A stretch of DNA of 27,204 nucleotides from a virus: UHGV virus genome UHGV-0165622; one strand, written 5' to 3'. Below the pieces are notes generated by a model. That model was not told the origin of the DNA and did not search any database. It was given only the letters and a program-made list of their open reading frames with translations. The translations under genes were made by a program, and so were the position numbers. Shown here in pieces: positions 593 to 9,323 of this stretch (its first letter is position 1; each line of letters begins with the position of its first letter).

Positions 593-1137
593 GCGAAATT
601 AATTATCAGGCACTGCGTGATGCGGCAGAAAAGGCAACGAAAGGGAGCTACATCGTAGGGCATACATCTGTTAACCAGCACGGCAATTTAACAGGAGTTT
701 TTGTTTGCCAAAAATGGAAAGGAGAACCCGGTGGCGTGATTGCAGAATGTCATGTTAACTGCCTGGTTGAAACAGATGCTCAGGCTTACGCAAACGCTGA
801 ATTTATTGCTGCCTTTAATCCAAATGTTGCGCTGGCACTACTGGATGAACGGGAAAGAAACCAGCAATACATAAAATCCCGCGACAAGGAGAACGAGGAT
901 ATTGCGCTAACGGTAGGGAAGCTGCGCGTTGAGCTTGAAGCAGAAAAACAGCGGGCAAAAGTTCTATTTATGGAAAATGCTCGGCTTAAGTCAGGCATAG
1001 CCGGTCTGATACACCTCGGTATTCGATATGCAGATGTTGAGGTCATGAAAATTGCTGGAGATGCCCAGCTTTCTACCCCATGCACTGACAGCATCATAAA
1101 CAGCATTGCAACAGGCATTCGCATCAAAGGAGAGTGA
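589..1137 (+). CDS. Ea22-like family protein
   Basis: 182 aa; N-terminal SEINYQALRDAAEKA and central coiled-coil region typical of lambdoid Ea22-like proteins; GTG start overlapping upstream stop. Confidence 0.7.
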   Translation: MSEINYQALRDAAEKATKGSYIVGHTSVNQHGNLTGVFVCQKWKGEPGGVIAECHVNCLVETDAQAYANAEFIAAFNPNVALALLDERERNQQYIKSRDKENEDIALTVGKLRVELEAEKQRAKVLFMENARLKSGIAGLIHLGIRYADVEVMKIAGDAQLSTPCTDSIINSIATGIRIKGE

Positions 1138-1138
1138 T

Positions 1139-1402
1139 ATGGCAACTTTAACAAAAAAAGAACGGGCATGGTTGAACGAATTACAGGACGTTCTTGATCG
1201 CTGCCCATCACCGAAAAAAATTGGTTTTTACACCATTGGCGATAAAAGCATTTACCTGTATGACCTACGCCGCATGGATGAAATCATGGAGGCTCTTGAT
1301 AATCGTTCGTCGATGGATTGGTGTGTTGCTGTCCATGATATGAATGCCGGATTTGATGAAAGGATTTTGTTCCCCTCATCAGTTGAAAGCACTGCGGGTT
1401 AA
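1139..1402 (+). CDS. Hypothetical phage protein
   Basis: 87-aa ORF (MATLTKKERAWLNELQD...) with AAAGGAGAG Shine-Dalgarno just upstream. Confidence 0.5.
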   Translation: MATLTKKERAWLNELQDVLDRCPSPKKIGFYTIGDKSIYLYDLRRMDEIMEALDNRSSMDWCVAVHDMNAGFDERILFPSSVESTAG

Positions 1403-1412
1403 GGAGTAACAC

Positions 1413-1556
1413 ATGACCACTATTACCAAAGAACGTATTGAATTGTTCATTAAATTTTCAGGAGGCGGTACTGTGAGTGAAATTAGCTATCAGGCTTCAA
1501 TTACCGCTGGCATTCGCATCAAAGGAGAGGAGCATGGAAATAAAACCAGAGGATGA
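1413..1556 (+). pseudogene. Mosaic remnant ORF combining Ea22-like N- and C-terminal fragments
   Basis: 47-aa ORF: N-terminus like ORF 76, then SEISYQAS (Ea22-like N-terminus), then ITAGIRIKGE (Ea22-like C-terminus); the 21-nt string ggcattcgcatcaaaggagag is duplicated at 1114-1134 and 1509-1529. Confidence 0.35.
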
Positions 1557-1890
1557 GTTAAGCAATATCGTTTTATTTCCGGTAAAAGAGGATGACCCTC
1601 GTAATCAGGTTAATTTTCTTTATGAGCCATCGGAAAGACCATATTGTCATCACGCCTCTGTCCGGGTTGACGAAAAAGAGCGTCAGGTCCGCTGTAAAAT
1701 CTGCGGTGCAGTTGTGGAGCCATTTGACTGGATGCTCTCTGTGGCGAAAAGAGAAACCAGACTGGCAGATGATGTAAGGCACTTGCGCCAGGAGGAGCGG
1801 GAAAGGCGAAAAAATATAGAAAAGCTAATTCAGATTGAGCGTAACGCGAAAGCGCGGATACGCAGGGCGACAAAATCCAGAACTGAATAA
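1534..1890 (+). CDS. Hypothetical protein, basic C-terminus
   Basis: 118-aa ORF starting MEIKPEDEL with AAAGGAGAGGAG Shine-Dalgarno; contains C/H-rich segment CHHASVRV...RCKICGAV. Confidence 0.5.
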   Translation: MEIKPEDELSNIVLFPVKEDDPRNQVNFLYEPSERPYCHHASVRVDEKERQVRCKICGAVVEPFDWMLSVAKRETRLADDVRHLRQEERERRKNIEKLIQIERNAKARIRRATKSRTE

Positions 1891-1983
1891 TTAAATTTAG
1901 CTCTGTTAAAAATTTAATCCTTAACCGGAGGGATTTCTGCACCCTCAGAACATCAGGAGGCCGCCCGAAAGGGCGGTAGTTAA

Positions 1984-2166
1984 ATGCGAAAGTTTAAAAT
2001 AATTATTGAAACGGGAATAGCCGGTGGAGATTTCGAGGATGAATTCGAAGTGGATGATGATGCGACGCCTGATGAAATACATGACGAAGCAAAAGATATT
2101 TTCTTTAACTACTGCAATTACTCACATCACGAAATAAAAGACGAAGAGGAAGAGCAAAATGGCTGA
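1984..2166 (+). CDS. Small acidic hypothetical protein
   Basis: 60-aa ORF, strongly acidic; preceded by a hairpin (gccgcccgaaagggcggt). Confidence 0.4.
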   Translation: MRKFKIIIETGIAGGDFEDEFEVDDDATPDEIHDEAKDIFFNYCNYSHHEIKDEEEEQNG

Positions 2167-2335
2167 TTTTGGTTCAACTAAATACAACGTCAGTTTTGAA
2201 GCATGGCATGAACTGTTAATGGACTATGCAGAGTTACGTGGTGGCAGTGCTGCTGATGCTGAAGCATGGCGTGATGATTATGAAGCAGGAAAAACTCCGG
2301 TCGAAGCATATTGTGATGAGTGGGGCGATGAATGA
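2159..2335 (+). CDS. Small hypothetical protein (not in ORF track)
   Basis: 58-aa ORF MADFGSTKYNVSFEAWHELL...; start overlaps previous stop and stop overlaps next start, consistent with a coupled early operon. Confidence 0.35.
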   Translation: MADFGSTKYNVSFEAWHELLMDYAELRGGSAADAEAWRDDYEAGKTPVEAYCDEWGDE

Positions 2336-2721
2336 GCGAGATTAATTATCAGGAAGGGCATGAAACGGCAGGGCAGGCAAAACCAGTTGCATGGCGATAT
2401 CGCTACGTGAAAAAAGACGTTACAGACTTTCAGGGGAAGCCGTGGGCTGGTGACTGGAAATATGTACCGACAAAAGAGGATTGTAACGACAGGCCGAACT
2501 ATGAAATTCAGGCCTTATTCATCGGCCCGCCAGTCCCGGTGACATCAGAAGGACTGGTTAAAGCCGTGCGCTTTTATGAACAGGTAAAGCGTGAGAATCC
2601 GCCAGTCGAAACAGGAGCATGGAAGGATGCTGTTGACTGGGTGCTCAGAGAGGCCTGCTGCGCTGCCATTCTGGGTAAGCCGACAATCCACCAGCATCCG
2701 GCAATCAGGTTAGCGAATTAA
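2332..2721 (+). CDS. Ea22-like family protein (short paralogue)
   Basis: 129 aa; N-terminus MSEINYQEGHETAG parallels the Ea22-like gene at 589. Confidence 0.6.
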   Translation: MSEINYQEGHETAGQAKPVAWRYRYVKKDVTDFQGKPWAGDWKYVPTKEDCNDRPNYEIQALFIGPPVPVTSEGLVKAVRFYEQVKRENPPVETGAWKDAVDWVLREACCAAILGKPTIHQHPAIRLAN

Positions 2722-2723
2722 CA

Positions 2724-2846
2724 ATGTGGGTTAAACGACTGGTCAGTCAACTGAAAAAAGCTCAGCCGGACTGCAAATTACCGGAGAAGGCGATGGATTA
2801 CCTGAAACGAAATGGACTGATAAGCGTGGAGGATGTTTTACGATGA
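2724..2846 (+). CDS. Small hypothetical protein (40 aa, not in ORF track)
   Basis: Short ORF MWVKRLVSQLKKAQPDCKLPEKAMDYLKRNGLISVEDVLR directly after the Ea22-like stop. Confidence 0.25.
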   Translation: MWVKRLVSQLKKAQPDCKLPEKAMDYLKRNGLISVEDVLR

Positions 2847-2927
2847 ATATTTAGACTAAAGAGTTTGTAACGCTATGTAAGTGATTTTTTCTGGTTTAGA
2901 TATTTATATGTCCGGCCAAATTGAGGT

Positions 2928-3146
2928 GTGTTTAAATGTTATTGCACATTGATTGTAGGGGGAATAATGAAAAACGCATTGCAGTTTTTGTTTGTTGCGT
3001 TCTGGTTGTTCGCATCATGTATGCCCATCATCTTCACAGCAAGGTATATGGAAAAAATTGATGTTTTGATATTAATGTTTGGACATATAAATGCCCTTTT
3101 TTTAGGGGTGTTCATGGCGGTCATGTGCATTGAATACTGGCGGTAA
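2928..3146 (+). CDS. Small hydrophobic (membrane) protein, AT-rich
   Basis: 72-aa ORF with two predicted hydrophobic helices in an AT-rich stretch; true start may be the internal Met (MKNALQF). Confidence 0.3.
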   Translation: MFKCYCTLIVGGIMKNALQFLFVAFWLFASCMPIIFTARYMEKIDVLILMFGHINALFLGVFMAVMCIEYWR

Positions 3147-3229
3147 ATACAGCGAACGCCATTGGTTTAGTTGGATATTTACTGTGCCGGACAAAAACGG
3201 TTTGCGGGGAAATCTTAGTTAAGTAGAAT

Positions 3230-3408
3230 GACTGCGGGTGCTTGAGGCTATCTGTCTCAGGCATGAACACCAAAAGGCAGATAGAGAAAAGCCCCAGTTA
3301 ACATTACGCGTCCTGCAAGACGCTTAACATTAATCTGAGGCCATATCTATGCGACACATAGAGATTAGCCTCTTACGGACCGAAAGGTCAAGGAGAAGCA
3401 GGCTATGA
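3230..3408 (+). promoter_or_regulatory. hok mRNA leader with mok-like upstream ORF (3349-3408) and probable antisense Sok target region
   Basis: 20-codon upstream ORF whose TGA overlaps the hok ATG (ctATGAag); inverted repeats in the leader (tatctgtctc / gcagatagag) fit hok/sok fold-back regulation. Confidence 0.4.
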
Positions 3409-3560
3409 AGCAGCAAAAGGCGATGTTAATCGCCCTGATCGTCATCTGTTTAACCGTCATAGTGACGGCACTGGTAACGAGGAAAGACCTCTGCGAGGTA
3501 CGAATCCGAACCGGCCAGACGGAGGTCGCTGTCTTCACAGCTTACGAACCTGAGGAGTAA
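3405..3560 (+). CDS. hokD: Hok/Gef family type I toxin (small membrane-depolarising peptide)
   Basis: 51 aa, MKQQKAMLIALIVICLTVIVTALVTRKDLCEVRIRTGQTEVAVFTAYEPEE; matches the Hok/Gef signature and is closest to HokD/RelF and HokC from memory; below the 60-aa cutoff of the ORF track. Confidence 0.85.
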   Translation: MKQQKAMLIALIVICLTVIVTALVTRKDLCEVRIRTGQTEVAVFTAYEPEE

Positions 3561-3628
3561 GAGACCCGGCGGGGGAGTAATCTCCCGCCACCTCTGATGT
3601 GCCAGGCATCCTCAACGCACCCGCACTT

Positions 3629-3650
3629 AACCCGCTTCGGCGGGTTTTTG
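3629..3650 (+). terminator. Rho-independent terminator after hok
   Basis: Hairpin cccgc-ttcg-gcggg followed by a T5 run. Confidence 0.7.
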
Positions 3651-3661
3651 CATTAGTCTGG

Positions 3662-3690
3662 TTGACAAAAATAGAAAAATGCGAAAATAT
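3662..3690 (+). promoter_or_regulatory. Putative sigma70 promoter for the 3726-5460 cassette
   Basis: Perfect -35 TTGACA at 3662-3667, 17-nt spacer, weak -10-like AAATAT; AT-rich context. Confidence 0.3.
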
Positions 3691-3725
3691 GTGGTTTACG
3701 AATTCTAAAAAAAGCGAAACTTGAA

Positions 3726-4376
3726 ATGAATGAAAATCAGTTAGCTCCTTGTTGGGAATTTCAACCTTATCTTGCTGAAAACTATGTTCGCCACTTGTTG
3801 GCGGAGATCGCTAACGTACTTGAGCAGCTGTACTATCATAAGCACGCATTAGACAGCAACTGGTCTGAAGGTGTAAGGGCTTATGATTGGGTCAGAAATC
3901 ATCTTATTCAAAATGAAGATGCAATTCCTGGCCTTGAGATGATTTCCAAGGGGTTGGACTATGTAGTTGCTTTAAATAAAGTTCCGCTACAATTTACCAA
4001 AGATTGCATTAATAACCCCAAAAAGAAACATCGTCTGCGTCGAAATAAAGTAGAGTATGAGCAGCTCTCATTGTTTGGTGATGTTGAGGCTGAGCAAGAT
4101 ATTACATGGCGAGTCATAGCTGAGCCTTTTTTATCCGAAGAGGGCGATGGTGAATTAGAGTCCACACTGCCTCGTTGGGAGGTAGCTCTTGTTGGATTTA
4201 ATACTTATGGTGCTCAGATTAGTATAGTTTCTCATCAATCTACAGCATCGATGCCGCTTATGCCTCTTGATTATAACACACTCCCTGACGAAGCGGAGAT
4301 TAATAAGGTGCCTCTTCGTCGGCGTACGAAGGATAAAGATTTGGATGTGAGCAGTGATGGAACATCAGGTGAATAA
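3726..4376 (+). CDS. Unknown 216-aa protein, upstream partner of the HTH/Zn-peptidase gene (candidate toxin or effector)
   Basis: ORF with no motif I recognise; low-GC codon usage; 3' end overlaps the downstream gene by about 20 nt. Confidence 0.7.
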   Translation: MNENQLAPCWEFQPYLAENYVRHLLAEIANVLEQLYYHKHALDSNWSEGVRAYDWVRNHLIQNEDAIPGLEMISKGLDYVVALNKVPLQFTKDCINNPKKKHRLRRNKVEYEQLSLFGDVEAEQDITWRVIAEPFLSEEGDGELESTLPRWEVALVGFNTYGAQISIVSHQSTASMPLMPLDYNTLPDEAEINKVPLRRRTKDKDLDVSSDGTSGE

Positions 4377-5460
4377 CTTCACTGAGTATCGGGGTGATAA
4401 GCTCAAACTAGCGAGAATGGCTGTTGGGCTTTCTTGTGAAGAGTTAGCCGAAAAAATTGGCAAGACAAAGCAATTCGTTAGCAAACTGGAGAAGGGGTGC
4501 AGGCCATCGGAGCAATGTCTTGAGTTAATATCTTCAGCGCTTATGATTAAGTCCAGTTTTCTTTTTACTGAACGAAAATACGCTCTGGAAAGTGATGTCT
4601 GCCATTTTCGGAGTAAGAAGTCCAGGACTCAAACGCTGACTAATAGTGTATTGGCCAGGGCTGAGATTCTTAATATTATAATTTCTGCTGTTGAAGGTGA
4701 AATCGAATTTCCTGACGTTAACATACCGGAGCACCCAGGGGCTGAATTACTTACTCCGAATGATATTGAGCGAGTGGCAGAAGATTGTCGCCGTGCCTGG
4801 AATTTAGGTCTTGGCCCTATATCATCAATGGTTAAATTGGCGGAGAGTTTAGGGGTAATCGTTGCGCATGTTACGGGAGTCGATGATCGTGTTGATGCTT
4901 TTACTGTTCACAATAACAGGCCTGTTATCATCAGGAACAATGTTAAAAAAAGCATATGTAGATTTCGCTCTGATTTAGGTCATGAATTAGGGCATTTAGT
5001 AATGCATGAGGGCATAACGACAGGTGATAAACTTACGGAATCACAAGCCGATCACTTTTCGAGCGCCTTATTAGTTCCCAGGTTATCTTTCATTAAAGAA
5101 TTTCCACGAATACGAGGTAAGCAATTCGACTGGAATGCTCTGGTTGAATTTAAACTTAGATGGAAAATCAGCCTTAAAATGTGTATTTATCGAGCCAGCG
5201 CATTAGGCTTATTGACCCAGGAACAGGCAAGAACTGGCTATATGCATCTTAATTCCAGAGGGTATACGAGAGTTGAACCTGGTGATGAACTTTTGCGCCC
5301 TGAAGAACCCGGCATGCTGGCCGAGGCGATTGAAATGCTGGATGATGCAACCTGGCTAAGAATTCTTATGAAAACTGGCTTGAGCCAAGATTTAATTCGT
5401 GAGTTGTTCTCCATCAACAGACCTATTACAAATCCAAGAAATATTTTCCAGATTGTTTGA
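4354..5460 (+). CDS. HTH_XRE plus ImmA/IrrE-family (COG2856, M78-like) zinc metallopeptidase fusion protein
   Basis: N-terminal XRE helix-turn-helix (LSCEELAEKIGKTKQFVSKLEKGCRPS); HEXXH zinc motif HELGH at about 4979-4993 with downstream Glu; 368 aa; GTG/ATG start overlapping the upstream gene. Confidence 0.85.
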   Translation: MMEHQVNNFTEYRGDKLKLARMAVGLSCEELAEKIGKTKQFVSKLEKGCRPSEQCLELISSALMIKSSFLFTERKYALESDVCHFRSKKSRTQTLTNSVLARAEILNIIISAVEGEIEFPDVNIPEHPGAELLTPNDIERVAEDCRRAWNLGLGPISSMVKLAESLGVIVAHVTGVDDRVDAFTVHNNRPVIIRNNVKKSICRFRSDLGHELGHLVMHEGITTGDKLTESQADHFSSALLVPRLSFIKEFPRIRGKQFDWNALVEFKLRWKISLKMCIYRASALGLLTQEQARTGYMHLNSRGYTRVEPGDELLRPEEPGMLAEAIEMLDDATWLRILMKTGLSQDLIRELFSINRPITNPRNIFQIV

Positions 5461-5464
5461 GTAT

Positions 5465-5486
5465 ACCCGCTTCGGCGGGTTTTTTG
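5465..5486 (+). terminator. Rho-independent terminator after the cassette
   Basis: Same hairpin as at 3629-3650 (acccgcttcggcggg) followed by a T6 run. Confidence 0.7.
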
Positions 5487-5646
5487 TTTTTATTTTCAAC
5501 GTGTTTGAAGTTTTGGACGGTGCCAGAATAGAATCAAAAATACTTAAGTAGCGCGCAGGGATAAGAGGGATGGTCCCTTAAAGGGGAGAGCTAATTATCC
5601 GGAAGGATTCTGATGATGAACATCGAAGAACTGCGTAAAATTTTTT

Positions 5647-5865
5647 GTGAAGATGGCCTTCTATGCTGTGTGCGTTGAAAATGGAAATCTTGTTAGTCAT
5701 TACCGCATTATGTGTTTGCGAAAGAATGGGGCTGCGTTAATTAATTTTGTGGATGCTCGGGTCACGGACGGATTTATCTTGCGCGACGGTGAGTTTGTCA
5801 CTTCATTACAGGTATTGAAAGAGATCGGAATAAAAGCAGGCTTTTCAGCTTTTGCAGAAGAATAA
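5647..5865 (+). CDS. Rem-like small prophage protein (possibly frameshifted at its N-terminus)
   Basis: 72-aa ORF; an upstream ATG at 5613 in another frame (MMNIEELRKIF...) would join in-frame if the T6 run at 5640-5646 were T5, giving an 83-aa product. Confidence 0.5.
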   Translation: MKMAFYAVCVENGNLVSHYRIMCLRKNGAALINFVDARVTDGFILRDGEFVTSLQVLKEIGIKAGFSAFAEE

Positions 5866-5931
5866 ACTCATCTACAATCTTGCGCGGGGCTGAACTCCCG
5901 CTGAGTAACACCGTGCCACCGGAGAAAACCG

Positions 5932-6210
5932 ATGGCACGCAACGCAAAATATTACAAACATGATAATTCGACCGTTCTTGCCCACACGCACGAGCGGTAT
6001 TCTCACGCATTTAAGTCAGACTGGTACCAGCATCCCCCATGCACTGAAGAACAGGCCGAATGGCTGATTCATAACTACCGCAGACGTGGATATGAGTTTA
6101 GGAAAGCCCTCACCCTCGATTATCGTCACTGGATAATCTACGTCAGACTCCCTTATTCCGAACGCCCACCGCGTCCGTCCCGCACATTCCAGCAACGCAT
6201 CTGGAGGTAA
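5932..6210 (+). CDS. Hypothetical basic protein
   Basis: 92-aa ORF ending 1 nt before the GTG start of the DUF968 gene. Confidence 0.45.
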   Translation: MARNAKYYKHDNSTVLAHTHERYSHAFKSDWYQHPPCTEEQAEWLIHNYRRRGYEFRKALTLDYRHWIIYVRLPYSERPPRPSRTFQQRIWR

Positions 6211-8618: not shown

Positions 8619-8987
8619 AGGCTTTTTTATTTGTGGTAAATGGGCGGCTGGTGGGTGTGGTGGTTGTTGCTTTCCCGTTGCTGAAAAAGAAAACGCCAGA
8701 CTGTTAGCCGGGTATCAGTTATCTGGAGAAATTTTTAAATACCTCACAATTCAGGCGGTTGACTGTTGTCTGGTTTGCGGGGAGTTTGTTAAAAGAAACT
8801 GGCATGGTGAATCCCCCTGTGCGGAGGGGCAATCAGCGAGTAGGTATATGGGATAATCGCGGATTCAGGTGCTGGTACTGAATTCACCGGGAGGCACCCG
8901 GCACCATGCAATGGCACATAGCGCCACTCTCCAGCCCCTCTCCGGAGGGGCTGTTTATATTGATTTTGTCAGATGTGAGTAAACTCC

Positions 8988-9323
8988 TTATGGACTTTGT
9001 TGTTTTAGTCCATAAGGACATATTTGCAGAGTGCAACGGTTATTAAAGCATTCATTCAATACGTTATCTGTATTTGTAGGACATTCCTGGCTGTTTTTGA
9101 TTAAATTCCAGAATGTTTTATTGAATGGTACTACGTTGTAAATGGTTAAAGGTAGCACTTTGTTATTGAGCATGATACCTGTGTGAGTCAGTGTAAATAT
9201 ACTTTCAGGAGGTAAGAAAGCATCCGATTGATACCAGATTATTAATTTTATTTTACTCCATATGACTGAAAAAGATATTCCGCATGATGGCTGGATAACT
9301 GTATCAATCACAATCCACTTCAT
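8988..9323 (-). CDS. Hypothetical Cys-containing protein in an AT-rich island, opposite strand to the late operon
   Basis: 111-aa ORF; good Shine-Dalgarno (AAGGAAA) upstream of the ATG on the minus strand; AT-rich composition unlike flanking phage genes; an 11-bp perfect inverted repeat (ccttatggact/agtccataagg) lies at its 3' end. Confidence 0.5.

What the first reader, a model, noticed from the sequence alone, without database searches (positions are those of the whole stretch)
5613..5865. rem-like gene split by a homopolymer run
An ATG at 5613 opens an ORF (MMNIEELRKIF...) that ends after 21 codons, while the main ORF (5647-5865) is in the +1 frame. Removing one T from the T6 run at 5640-5646 joins them into a single 83-aa protein. 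This suggests a sequencing error, a recent frameshift, or a slippage-prone start region.
Basis: seen in the sequence. Interest (0 to 1): 0.35.

Follow-up and report, generated by a model that had tools for sequence, protein, structure and literature searches.

The report
Frameshifted rem antirepressor gene in prophage
This is the known prophage antirepressor gene rem, broken by one extra T in codon 16 rather than in the nearby run of six T's; it is an ordinary one-off null allele or a sequencing error.

Summary
ORF A runs 5613-5678 (21 aa) and ORF B runs 5647-5865 (72 aa, +1 frame). Together they are rem, the Qin-type antirepressor of the DicA repressor. The break is not at the T6 run. That run (5641-5646) is identical in E. 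coli K-12 and in every intact copy I read base by base. The lesion is an extra T at 5659/5660 (CCTTCT instead of CCTCT).

Deleting that T gives the native 83-aa protein, MMNIEELRKIFCEDGLYAVC.... This protein already exists in another metagenome contig. Deleting a T from the T6 run also gives 83 aa, but it replaces the conserved CEDGL motif with VKMAF.

The +T allele occurs in 0 of 2,270 complete E. coli genomes that carry this segment. It is also absent from three other collections. The repaired 80-mer is identical in 1,761 records.

The window is a low-coverage metagenome contig. It is otherwise free of isolated indels, so a real mutation is somewhat more likely than an error, but only the reads can decide. 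Either way the finding is ordinary.

The parts
5465..5490 (+). Intrinsic terminator ending the upstream rmrA gene. It is also the left edge of homology to the K-12 rem region.
   Evidence: The terminator scan found the stem ACCCGCTTCGGCGGGT followed by a T-run. Megablast matches to rem loci begin at window 5481.
5505..5534 (+). Promoter-like site, TTGAAG-18-TAGAAT, a candidate rem promoter. This is a consensus match only.
   Evidence: One search scored it 9 of 12 matches. The shuffle expectation is 1.0 sites per region, so the evidence is weak.
5601..5607 (+). Shine-Dalgarno-like GGAAGGA, 5 nt upstream of the rem ATG.
   Evidence: Read from the sequence. It is identical in K-12.
5613..5660 (+). 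The 5' part of rem: codons 1-16 in the native frame, MMNIEELRKIFCEDGL. Read on in this frame, the ORF stops at TGA 5676-5678.
   Evidence: The N-terminus is conserved across the family.
5641..5646 (+). The T6 run, unaltered. It is not the lesion.
   Evidence: The run is identical in K-12 and in contigs L008, L010, L011, L013 and L014. It lies inside the repaired 80-mer that is 100% identical in 1,761 E. coli records.
5659..5660 (+). The lesion: TT where all intact copies have a single T. Codon 16 reads CTC in intact copies and CT+T in the window. This is a 1-nt insertion that shifts the reading frame.
   Evidence: The allele is in 0 of 2,270 E. coli genomes that carry this segment. It has no exact match in GTDB representative genomes, IMG/VR or JGI metagenomes.
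5662..5865 (+). The 3' part of rem: native codons 17-83 plus the stop, now in the +1 frame. It lies inside ORF B (5647-5865).
   Evidence: Deleting one T at 5659/5660 gives an 83-aa protein identical to P0121.

Best explanation
The locus is rem, a small antirepressor gene (83 aa) of lambdoid prophages. In E. coli K-12 Qin, Rem relieves repression by the short, non-cleavable DicA repressor.

In this contig, codon 16 (CTC) carries one extra T at 5659/5660. Translation from the native ATG at 5613 therefore ends after 21 codons. The remaining 67 native codons lie in the +1 frame, with no ribosome-binding site of their own. As written, this is a null allele.

Shown: the identity of the gene, the exact position of the lesion, and the fact that the allele is unique. 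Inferred: that the insertion is a real, recent mutation in the sampled population rather than an assembly error (about 60:35), and that the result is loss of Rem-dependent prophage derepression.
For: Identity of the gene and position of the lesion:
- The K-12 rem alignment has a single indel at 5659/5660, and the T6 run is unchanged.
- Five independent metagenome contigs show the same thing.
- The repaired protein is exactly P0121, which exists in ENA.
- The repair at TT scores 160 bits on the family HMM. The repair at T6 scores 147 bits.
- The E-D/N-G-L-Y motif is nearly invariant in the family.
- Synteny is conserved: hok/TA cargo, rem, a 92-aa gene, ydfU, rusA, Q.

Function:
- Ectopic expression of K-12 rem raised dicBp expression 165-fold. 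It also caused DicB/DicF-dependent filamentation and growth inhibition (PMC10448788).

Real mutation rather than artefact:
- About 21 kb of the contig aligns at 99.4% to an ST131 prophage with no isolated indels. The gaps there lie only in two divergent patches, at 5937-6013 and 8842-8859. A separate 2.5-kb aligned piece has one isolated 1-nt indel, at 3578.
- The site is a dinucleotide, not a homopolymer.
- rem is often lost. The nearest prophage lacks it entirely.
- Public data hold several differently truncated or rearranged Rem proteins, for example P0031, P0034, P0037, P0045, P0063, P0107 and P0113.
Against: - The allele is seen in only one contig, a SPAdes metagenome node with k-mer coverage of about 7. 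No reads are available, so a consensus error cannot be excluded.
- No other database sequence shares the allele. This fits a private mutation and an artefact equally well.
- The cognate repressor lies outside the window, so the functional consequence for this prophage is untested.
Confidence: 0.6

Rival explanations
1. Sequencing or assembly artefact. The sampled phage has an intact rem, and the extra T was introduced in the low-coverage consensus.
For: - The contig is ERZ654457 NODE_205 with a k-mer coverage of 6.96.
- The allele is absent from all four collections searched.
- Apart from this one base, the gene shows no decay. The repaired protein is identical to a protein that exists elsewhere.
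Against: - About 21 kb of the same contig aligns to a 99.4%-identical prophage without isolated indels. The only isolated indel in the roughly 23.8 kb that aligns is at 3578.
- The site is TT, not a long homopolymer. From my own knowledge, short-read indel errors at such sites are rare.
Confidence: 0.35
2. Leaky +1 ribosomal frameshift at CUU-CUA. The peptidyl-tRNA-Leu slips from CUU (5658-5660) to UUC while the rare CUA codon waits in the A site. Reading then continues at UAU, which would give exactly the native GLYAV join and a low level of full-length Rem.
For: - Read from the sequence: CUU CUA U lets the tRNA re-pair on UUC, and the product would be the native protein.
- From my own knowledge: prfB (CUU UGA C) and Ty1 (CUU AGG C) both use CUU for +1 slips, and CUA is the rarest Leu codon in E. 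coli.
Against: - The frameshift is not conserved. It is in 0 of 2,270 genomes, and the repaired 80-mer is identical in 1,761 records.
- There is no Shine-Dalgarno-like stimulator just upstream; the sequence there is GAAGAUGGC.
- Efficiency without a stimulator is expected to be about 1% or less.
Confidence: 0.03
3. ORF B (5647-5865, or from the ATG at 5653) is translated on its own as a functional Rem that lacks its N-terminus.
For: ORF B keeps 67 of the 83 native residues and scores 125 bits on the family HMM.
Against: - There is no Shine-Dalgarno sequence before 5647 or 5653; the sequence there is AAAATTTTTTGTGAAG.
- No orthologue starts there.
- The missing segment contains nearly invariant residues: E5, E6, L7, R8, I10, F11, G15. 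In the low-confidence model it forms the N-terminal helix.
- The ENA gene caller called no gene here.
Confidence: 0.02

Closest known systems
Rem of E. coli K-12 Qin cryptic prophage (b1561; Pfam PF27490), antirepressor of DicA
   Same: - The rem region (5481-5957) is 97.9% identical in nucleotide sequence. Within the 342-column alignment around the gene there are 7 substitutions and one indel.
- The repaired protein differs from K-12 Rem at 4 of 83 residues.
- The 5' leader, Shine-Dalgarno sequence and T6 run are identical.
- The downstream neighbours are the same: a 92-aa gene and ydfU.
   Different: - The window copy has one extra T in codon 16, so it encodes only 21 aa from the native start.
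- The upstream cargo is a RosmerTA pair instead of relBE-hokD.
Rem-like genes of O157 PPompW prophages and of Rac from strain 442/2 (85-86 aa)
   Same: Same family and same position in the prophage. The N-terminal EELR.IF.EDGLY motif and the C-terminal EFVTSL...KAGFSAF motif are conserved.
   Different: They are only 77-80% identical in nucleotide sequence and carry a 3-4-residue insertion (for example SQQR in PPompW). They are intact.
Gifsy/Fels antirepressors GfoA and FsoA of Salmonella
   Same: Small antirepressors that act on short, non-cleavable prophage repressors. Rem was found by PSI-BLAST starting from them (PMC10448788).
   Different: - From my own knowledge, the Gifsy antirepressor genes are controlled by LexA. 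No LexA box lies upstream of rem here.
- The signal that induces Rem is unknown.
- I did not test sequence similarity to these proteins.
prfB-type programmed +1 frameshift
   Same: A CUU codon followed by a slowly decoded codon, at a +1 frame junction.
   Different: - There is no conservation and no Shine-Dalgarno-like stimulator.
- The ancestral state is an uninterrupted ORF.

Membership tests
Rem antirepressor family (PF27490; RefSeq 'protein Rem') | Full-length sequence homology to K-12 Rem | tested here: met
   After repair at 5659/5660, the protein is 94-95% identical to the top-ranked clusters (P0001, P0002), with E about 4e-45. It scores 160 bits on a family HMM. The hits carry a precomputed PF27490 label. 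The local Pfam and NCBIfam copies hold no model for this family.
Rem antirepressor family (PF27490; RefSeq 'protein Rem') | Uninterrupted ORF of about 83-87 codons from the conserved ATG | tested here: not met
   The extra T at 5659/5660 ends the native frame after 21 codons.
Rem antirepressor family (PF27490; RefSeq 'protein Rem') | Conserved position between the TA/defence cargo and the 92-aa gene, ydfU, rusA and Q | tested here: met
Rem antirepressor family (PF27490; RefSeq 'protein Rem') | Derepresses a DicA-type repressor encoded by the same prophage | not testable with these tools
   The activity is known only for K-12 Rem (PMC10448788). The immunity region lies outside the window.
Homopolymer contingency or slippage locus | The frameshift lies in the run, and run length varies among copies | tested here: not met
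   The T6 run is identical in K-12 and five metagenome contigs. It also lies within the 80-mer that is identical in 1,761 records. The indel is 13 nt downstream of the run.
Programmed +1 ribosomal frameshift (prfB-like) | The frameshift is conserved among orthologues | tested here: not met
   0 of 2,270 genomes carry it. It is absent from three other collections.
Programmed +1 ribosomal frameshift (prfB-like) | Slippery CUU followed by a slow codon, plus an upstream Shine-Dalgarno-like stimulator | tested here: inconclusive
   CUU-CUA is present. No Shine-Dalgarno-like element lies 3 nt upstream.
LexA-controlled Gifsy-type antirepressor | LexA box in the promoter region | tested here: not met
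   There is no match to the consensus within 3 mismatches anywhere in the window. There is no CTGT-N8-ACAG between 5460 and 5612.

The most novel reading that the evidence does not exclude
The extra T happens to create a CUU-CUA +1 shift site. A small fraction of ribosomes would then still make full-length native Rem. This would turn a strong, toxic antirepressor into a heavily attenuated one rather than a null.
Probability: 0.03. Interest if true: 0.3.

Novelty: already known. Interest (0 to 1): 0.1.

Why it matters
It matters little. If the insertion is real, this prophage has lost its Rem antirepressor. By analogy with Qin, it would then no longer be derepressed through Rem, while spontaneous or stress-driven switching could remain (PMC10448788). 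This is one more example of decay or loss of a gene that is toxic when over-expressed and that the closest prophage has lost altogether.

The practical lesson concerns annotation. Two different single-base repairs both give an 83-codon ORF, and only comparison with orthologues shows which one is right.

Tried and rejected
- **Repair at the T6 run.** Rejected: the run is unchanged in intact copies, and the product loses the conserved CEDGL motif.
- **Search for the +T allele elsewhere.** There were no hits in complete E. coli genomes, GTDB representative genomes, IMG/VR or JGI metagenomes. The exact 72-aa and 70-aa ORF B products are not in the 15-billion-protein collection either.
- **Family libraries.** Pfam (local copy), NCBIfam and PADLOC gave nothing for Rem. 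The only hit was a meaningless 16-bit match to SocB, against a cut-off of 210 bits.
- **Structure.** The AlphaFold2 model built on 21 homologues was poor (pLDDT 60; helix 4-14, then four long strands). The Foldseek search of PDB and the PDB profile search gave nothing significant; the best E-values were 0.38 and 0.53.
- **LexA box upstream of rem.** None found.
- **Rfam.** No RNA family lies in 5400-6000.
- **Antisense ORFs.** I did not pursue 5578-5700 or 5798-6010 on the minus strand. They have no supporting evidence.

Full report
**Observation.** ATG 5613 opens MMNIEELRKIFCEDGLLCCVR, which stops at TGA 5676-5678. A 72-codon ORF runs 5647-5865 in the +1 frame. The T-run is 5641-5646 (six T's); position 5640 is an A. 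Deleting one T from the run does fuse the two ORFs into 83 codons.

**What the gene is.** Megablast of 5480-5960 against 5,426 complete E. coli genomes hits 3,011 of them. Most hits are at about 98% identity and are annotated 'rem: protein Rem'. In K-12 the order of genes is relB, relE, hokD, rem, a 92-aa gene, ydfU, then an antiterminator gene (ydfT). The window has hok/sok, two cargo genes, rem, the 92-aa gene, ydfU (DUF968), rusA and Q (DUF1133). More distant copies, 77-80% identical in nucleotide sequence, sit at the same position in O157 PPompW prophages and in a Rac-type phage.

**Where the lesion is.** The alignment to K-12 rem shows an identical leader, Shine-Dalgarno sequence, start codon and T6 run. 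It has exactly one indel: GGCCTTCTATGC in the window against GGCCTCTATGC in K-12. Four other metagenome contigs that encode the same 92-aa neighbour, plus contig L014, all have the single T and the same T6 run.
- Deleting one T at 5659/5660 gives MMNIEELRKIFCEDGLYAVCVENGN.... This 83-aa protein is present, residue for residue, in an independent ENA contig (P0121 on L014).
- Deleting a T from the T6 run gives ...KIFVKMAFYAVC... instead.

In an alignment of 26 natural family members, which go down to 61% identity to the repaired protein, G15 and Y17 are nearly invariant and the motif E-D/N-G-L-Y is conserved. Family HMMs prefer the TT repair by 11-14 bits. The gene really is frameshifted, but the homopolymer is innocent.

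**How common the allele is.**
- The window's 81-mer across the site is found at 100% identity in none of the 2,270 E. coli genomes that carry this segment. The listed best hits are at 98.8%, which is one gap.
- The same stretch with one T removed is 100% identical in 1,761 records.
- Exact-pattern scans for the +T allele found nothing in GTDB species representatives, IMG/VR or JGI metagenomes.
- The intact pattern occurs in E. coli, E. ruysiae and Shigella flexneri representatives.
- The ORF B product is not in the 15-billion-protein collection.

**Real or artefact.** The window is ENA assembly ERZ654457, NODE_205_length_27204_cov_6.96. This is a low-coverage short-read-style metagenome contig, and its gene caller called nothing at rem.

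Against a general error problem:
- Positions 5915-27204 align at 99.4% to an ST131 prophage. Gaps there lie only in two divergent patches, with no isolated single-base indels. The separate 1135-3648 piece has one isolated 1-nt indel, at 3578.
- The site is a dinucleotide, not a long homopolymer.

In favour of real decay:
- That closest prophage lacks rem altogether.
- Public data contain several differently truncated or rearranged Rem proteins.
- Ectopic Rem is toxic through DicB and DicF.

I put a real mutation at about 60% and an artefact at about 35%. Only the reads can settle it.

**Function and consequence.** Ragunathan et al. 2023 (PMC10448788) showed that ectopic expression of K-12 rem raises dicBp expression 165-fold. 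DicA normally represses that promoter. Expression also causes filamentation that depends on DicB and DicF. Rem was found through similarity to the Gifsy and Fels antirepressors, and its natural inducing signal is unknown.

As written, the window allele makes a 21-aa peptide. ORF B lacks a Shine-Dalgarno sequence and lacks the conserved N-terminal segment, which is helix 4-14 in a low-confidence model. The inferred outcome is loss of Rem-dependent derepression. The cognate repressor is outside the window, so this step is inference. No LexA box precedes rem. There is a weak promoter-like site at 5505-5534, and the upstream terminator is at 5465-5490.

**Speculative reading.** The insertion creates CUU-CUA-U. 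A +1 slip of tRNA-Leu from CUU to UUC, before the rare CUA codon, would restore exactly the native protein. Nothing supports this beyond the sequence itself. The frameshift is not conserved and there is no stimulator. I give it about 3%.

**Verdict.** This is a known gene with an ordinary private frameshift or an error. Interest is low.

Noticed in passing
window 3726-5460: The two genes directly upstream of rem are a RosmerTA-type anti-phage defence pair. The 216-aa protein matches RmrT (E 4.6e-25). The 368-aa HTH plus M78-peptidase protein matches RmrA (E 6e-105). The pair sits in the cargo slot where K-12 Qin carries relBE-hokD.
   Followed up: partly
window 3236-3560: A hok/sok type I toxin-antitoxin module. 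Rfam sok matches at 3236-3407 (107 bits), and a 51-aa HOK_GEF gene was called at about 3405-3560.
   Followed up: no
window 3649-5914: This is a mosaic replacement. The closest prophage (ST131-type, 99.4% identical elsewhere) has only about 60 bp here, so it lacks both the RosmerTA pair and rem.
   Followed up: partly
window 8773-9323: The sRNA STnc100 lies at 8773-8962 on the + strand (132 bits). It is followed by an IraM/PmrD-family gene on the minus strand at 8988-9323, downstream of Q.
   Followed up: no
proteins P0032 and P0041 (public E. coli chromosome-length contigs): Some public Rem proteins read MMNIEELRKIFVKMASML..., then return to frame. This is what a lost T in the T6 run plus a later compensating indel would give. 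The run may therefore be a homopolymer error site in other assemblies, though not in this window.
   Followed up: partly
L019 (JAGZPX010000007.1, 22,874 bp): A contig binned into a 'Veillonella parvula' MAG carries an exact 36-nt match to the intact E. coli rem sequence. It is probably a mis-binned enterobacterial prophage contig.
   Followed up: no
window 4904-4919: A perfect CTGT-N8-ACAG half-site pattern, LexA-box-like, lies inside the rmrA coding sequence. Two perfect matches occur in the window overall, and the count within 1 mismatch is 13 against about 8 expected by chance.
   Followed up: no
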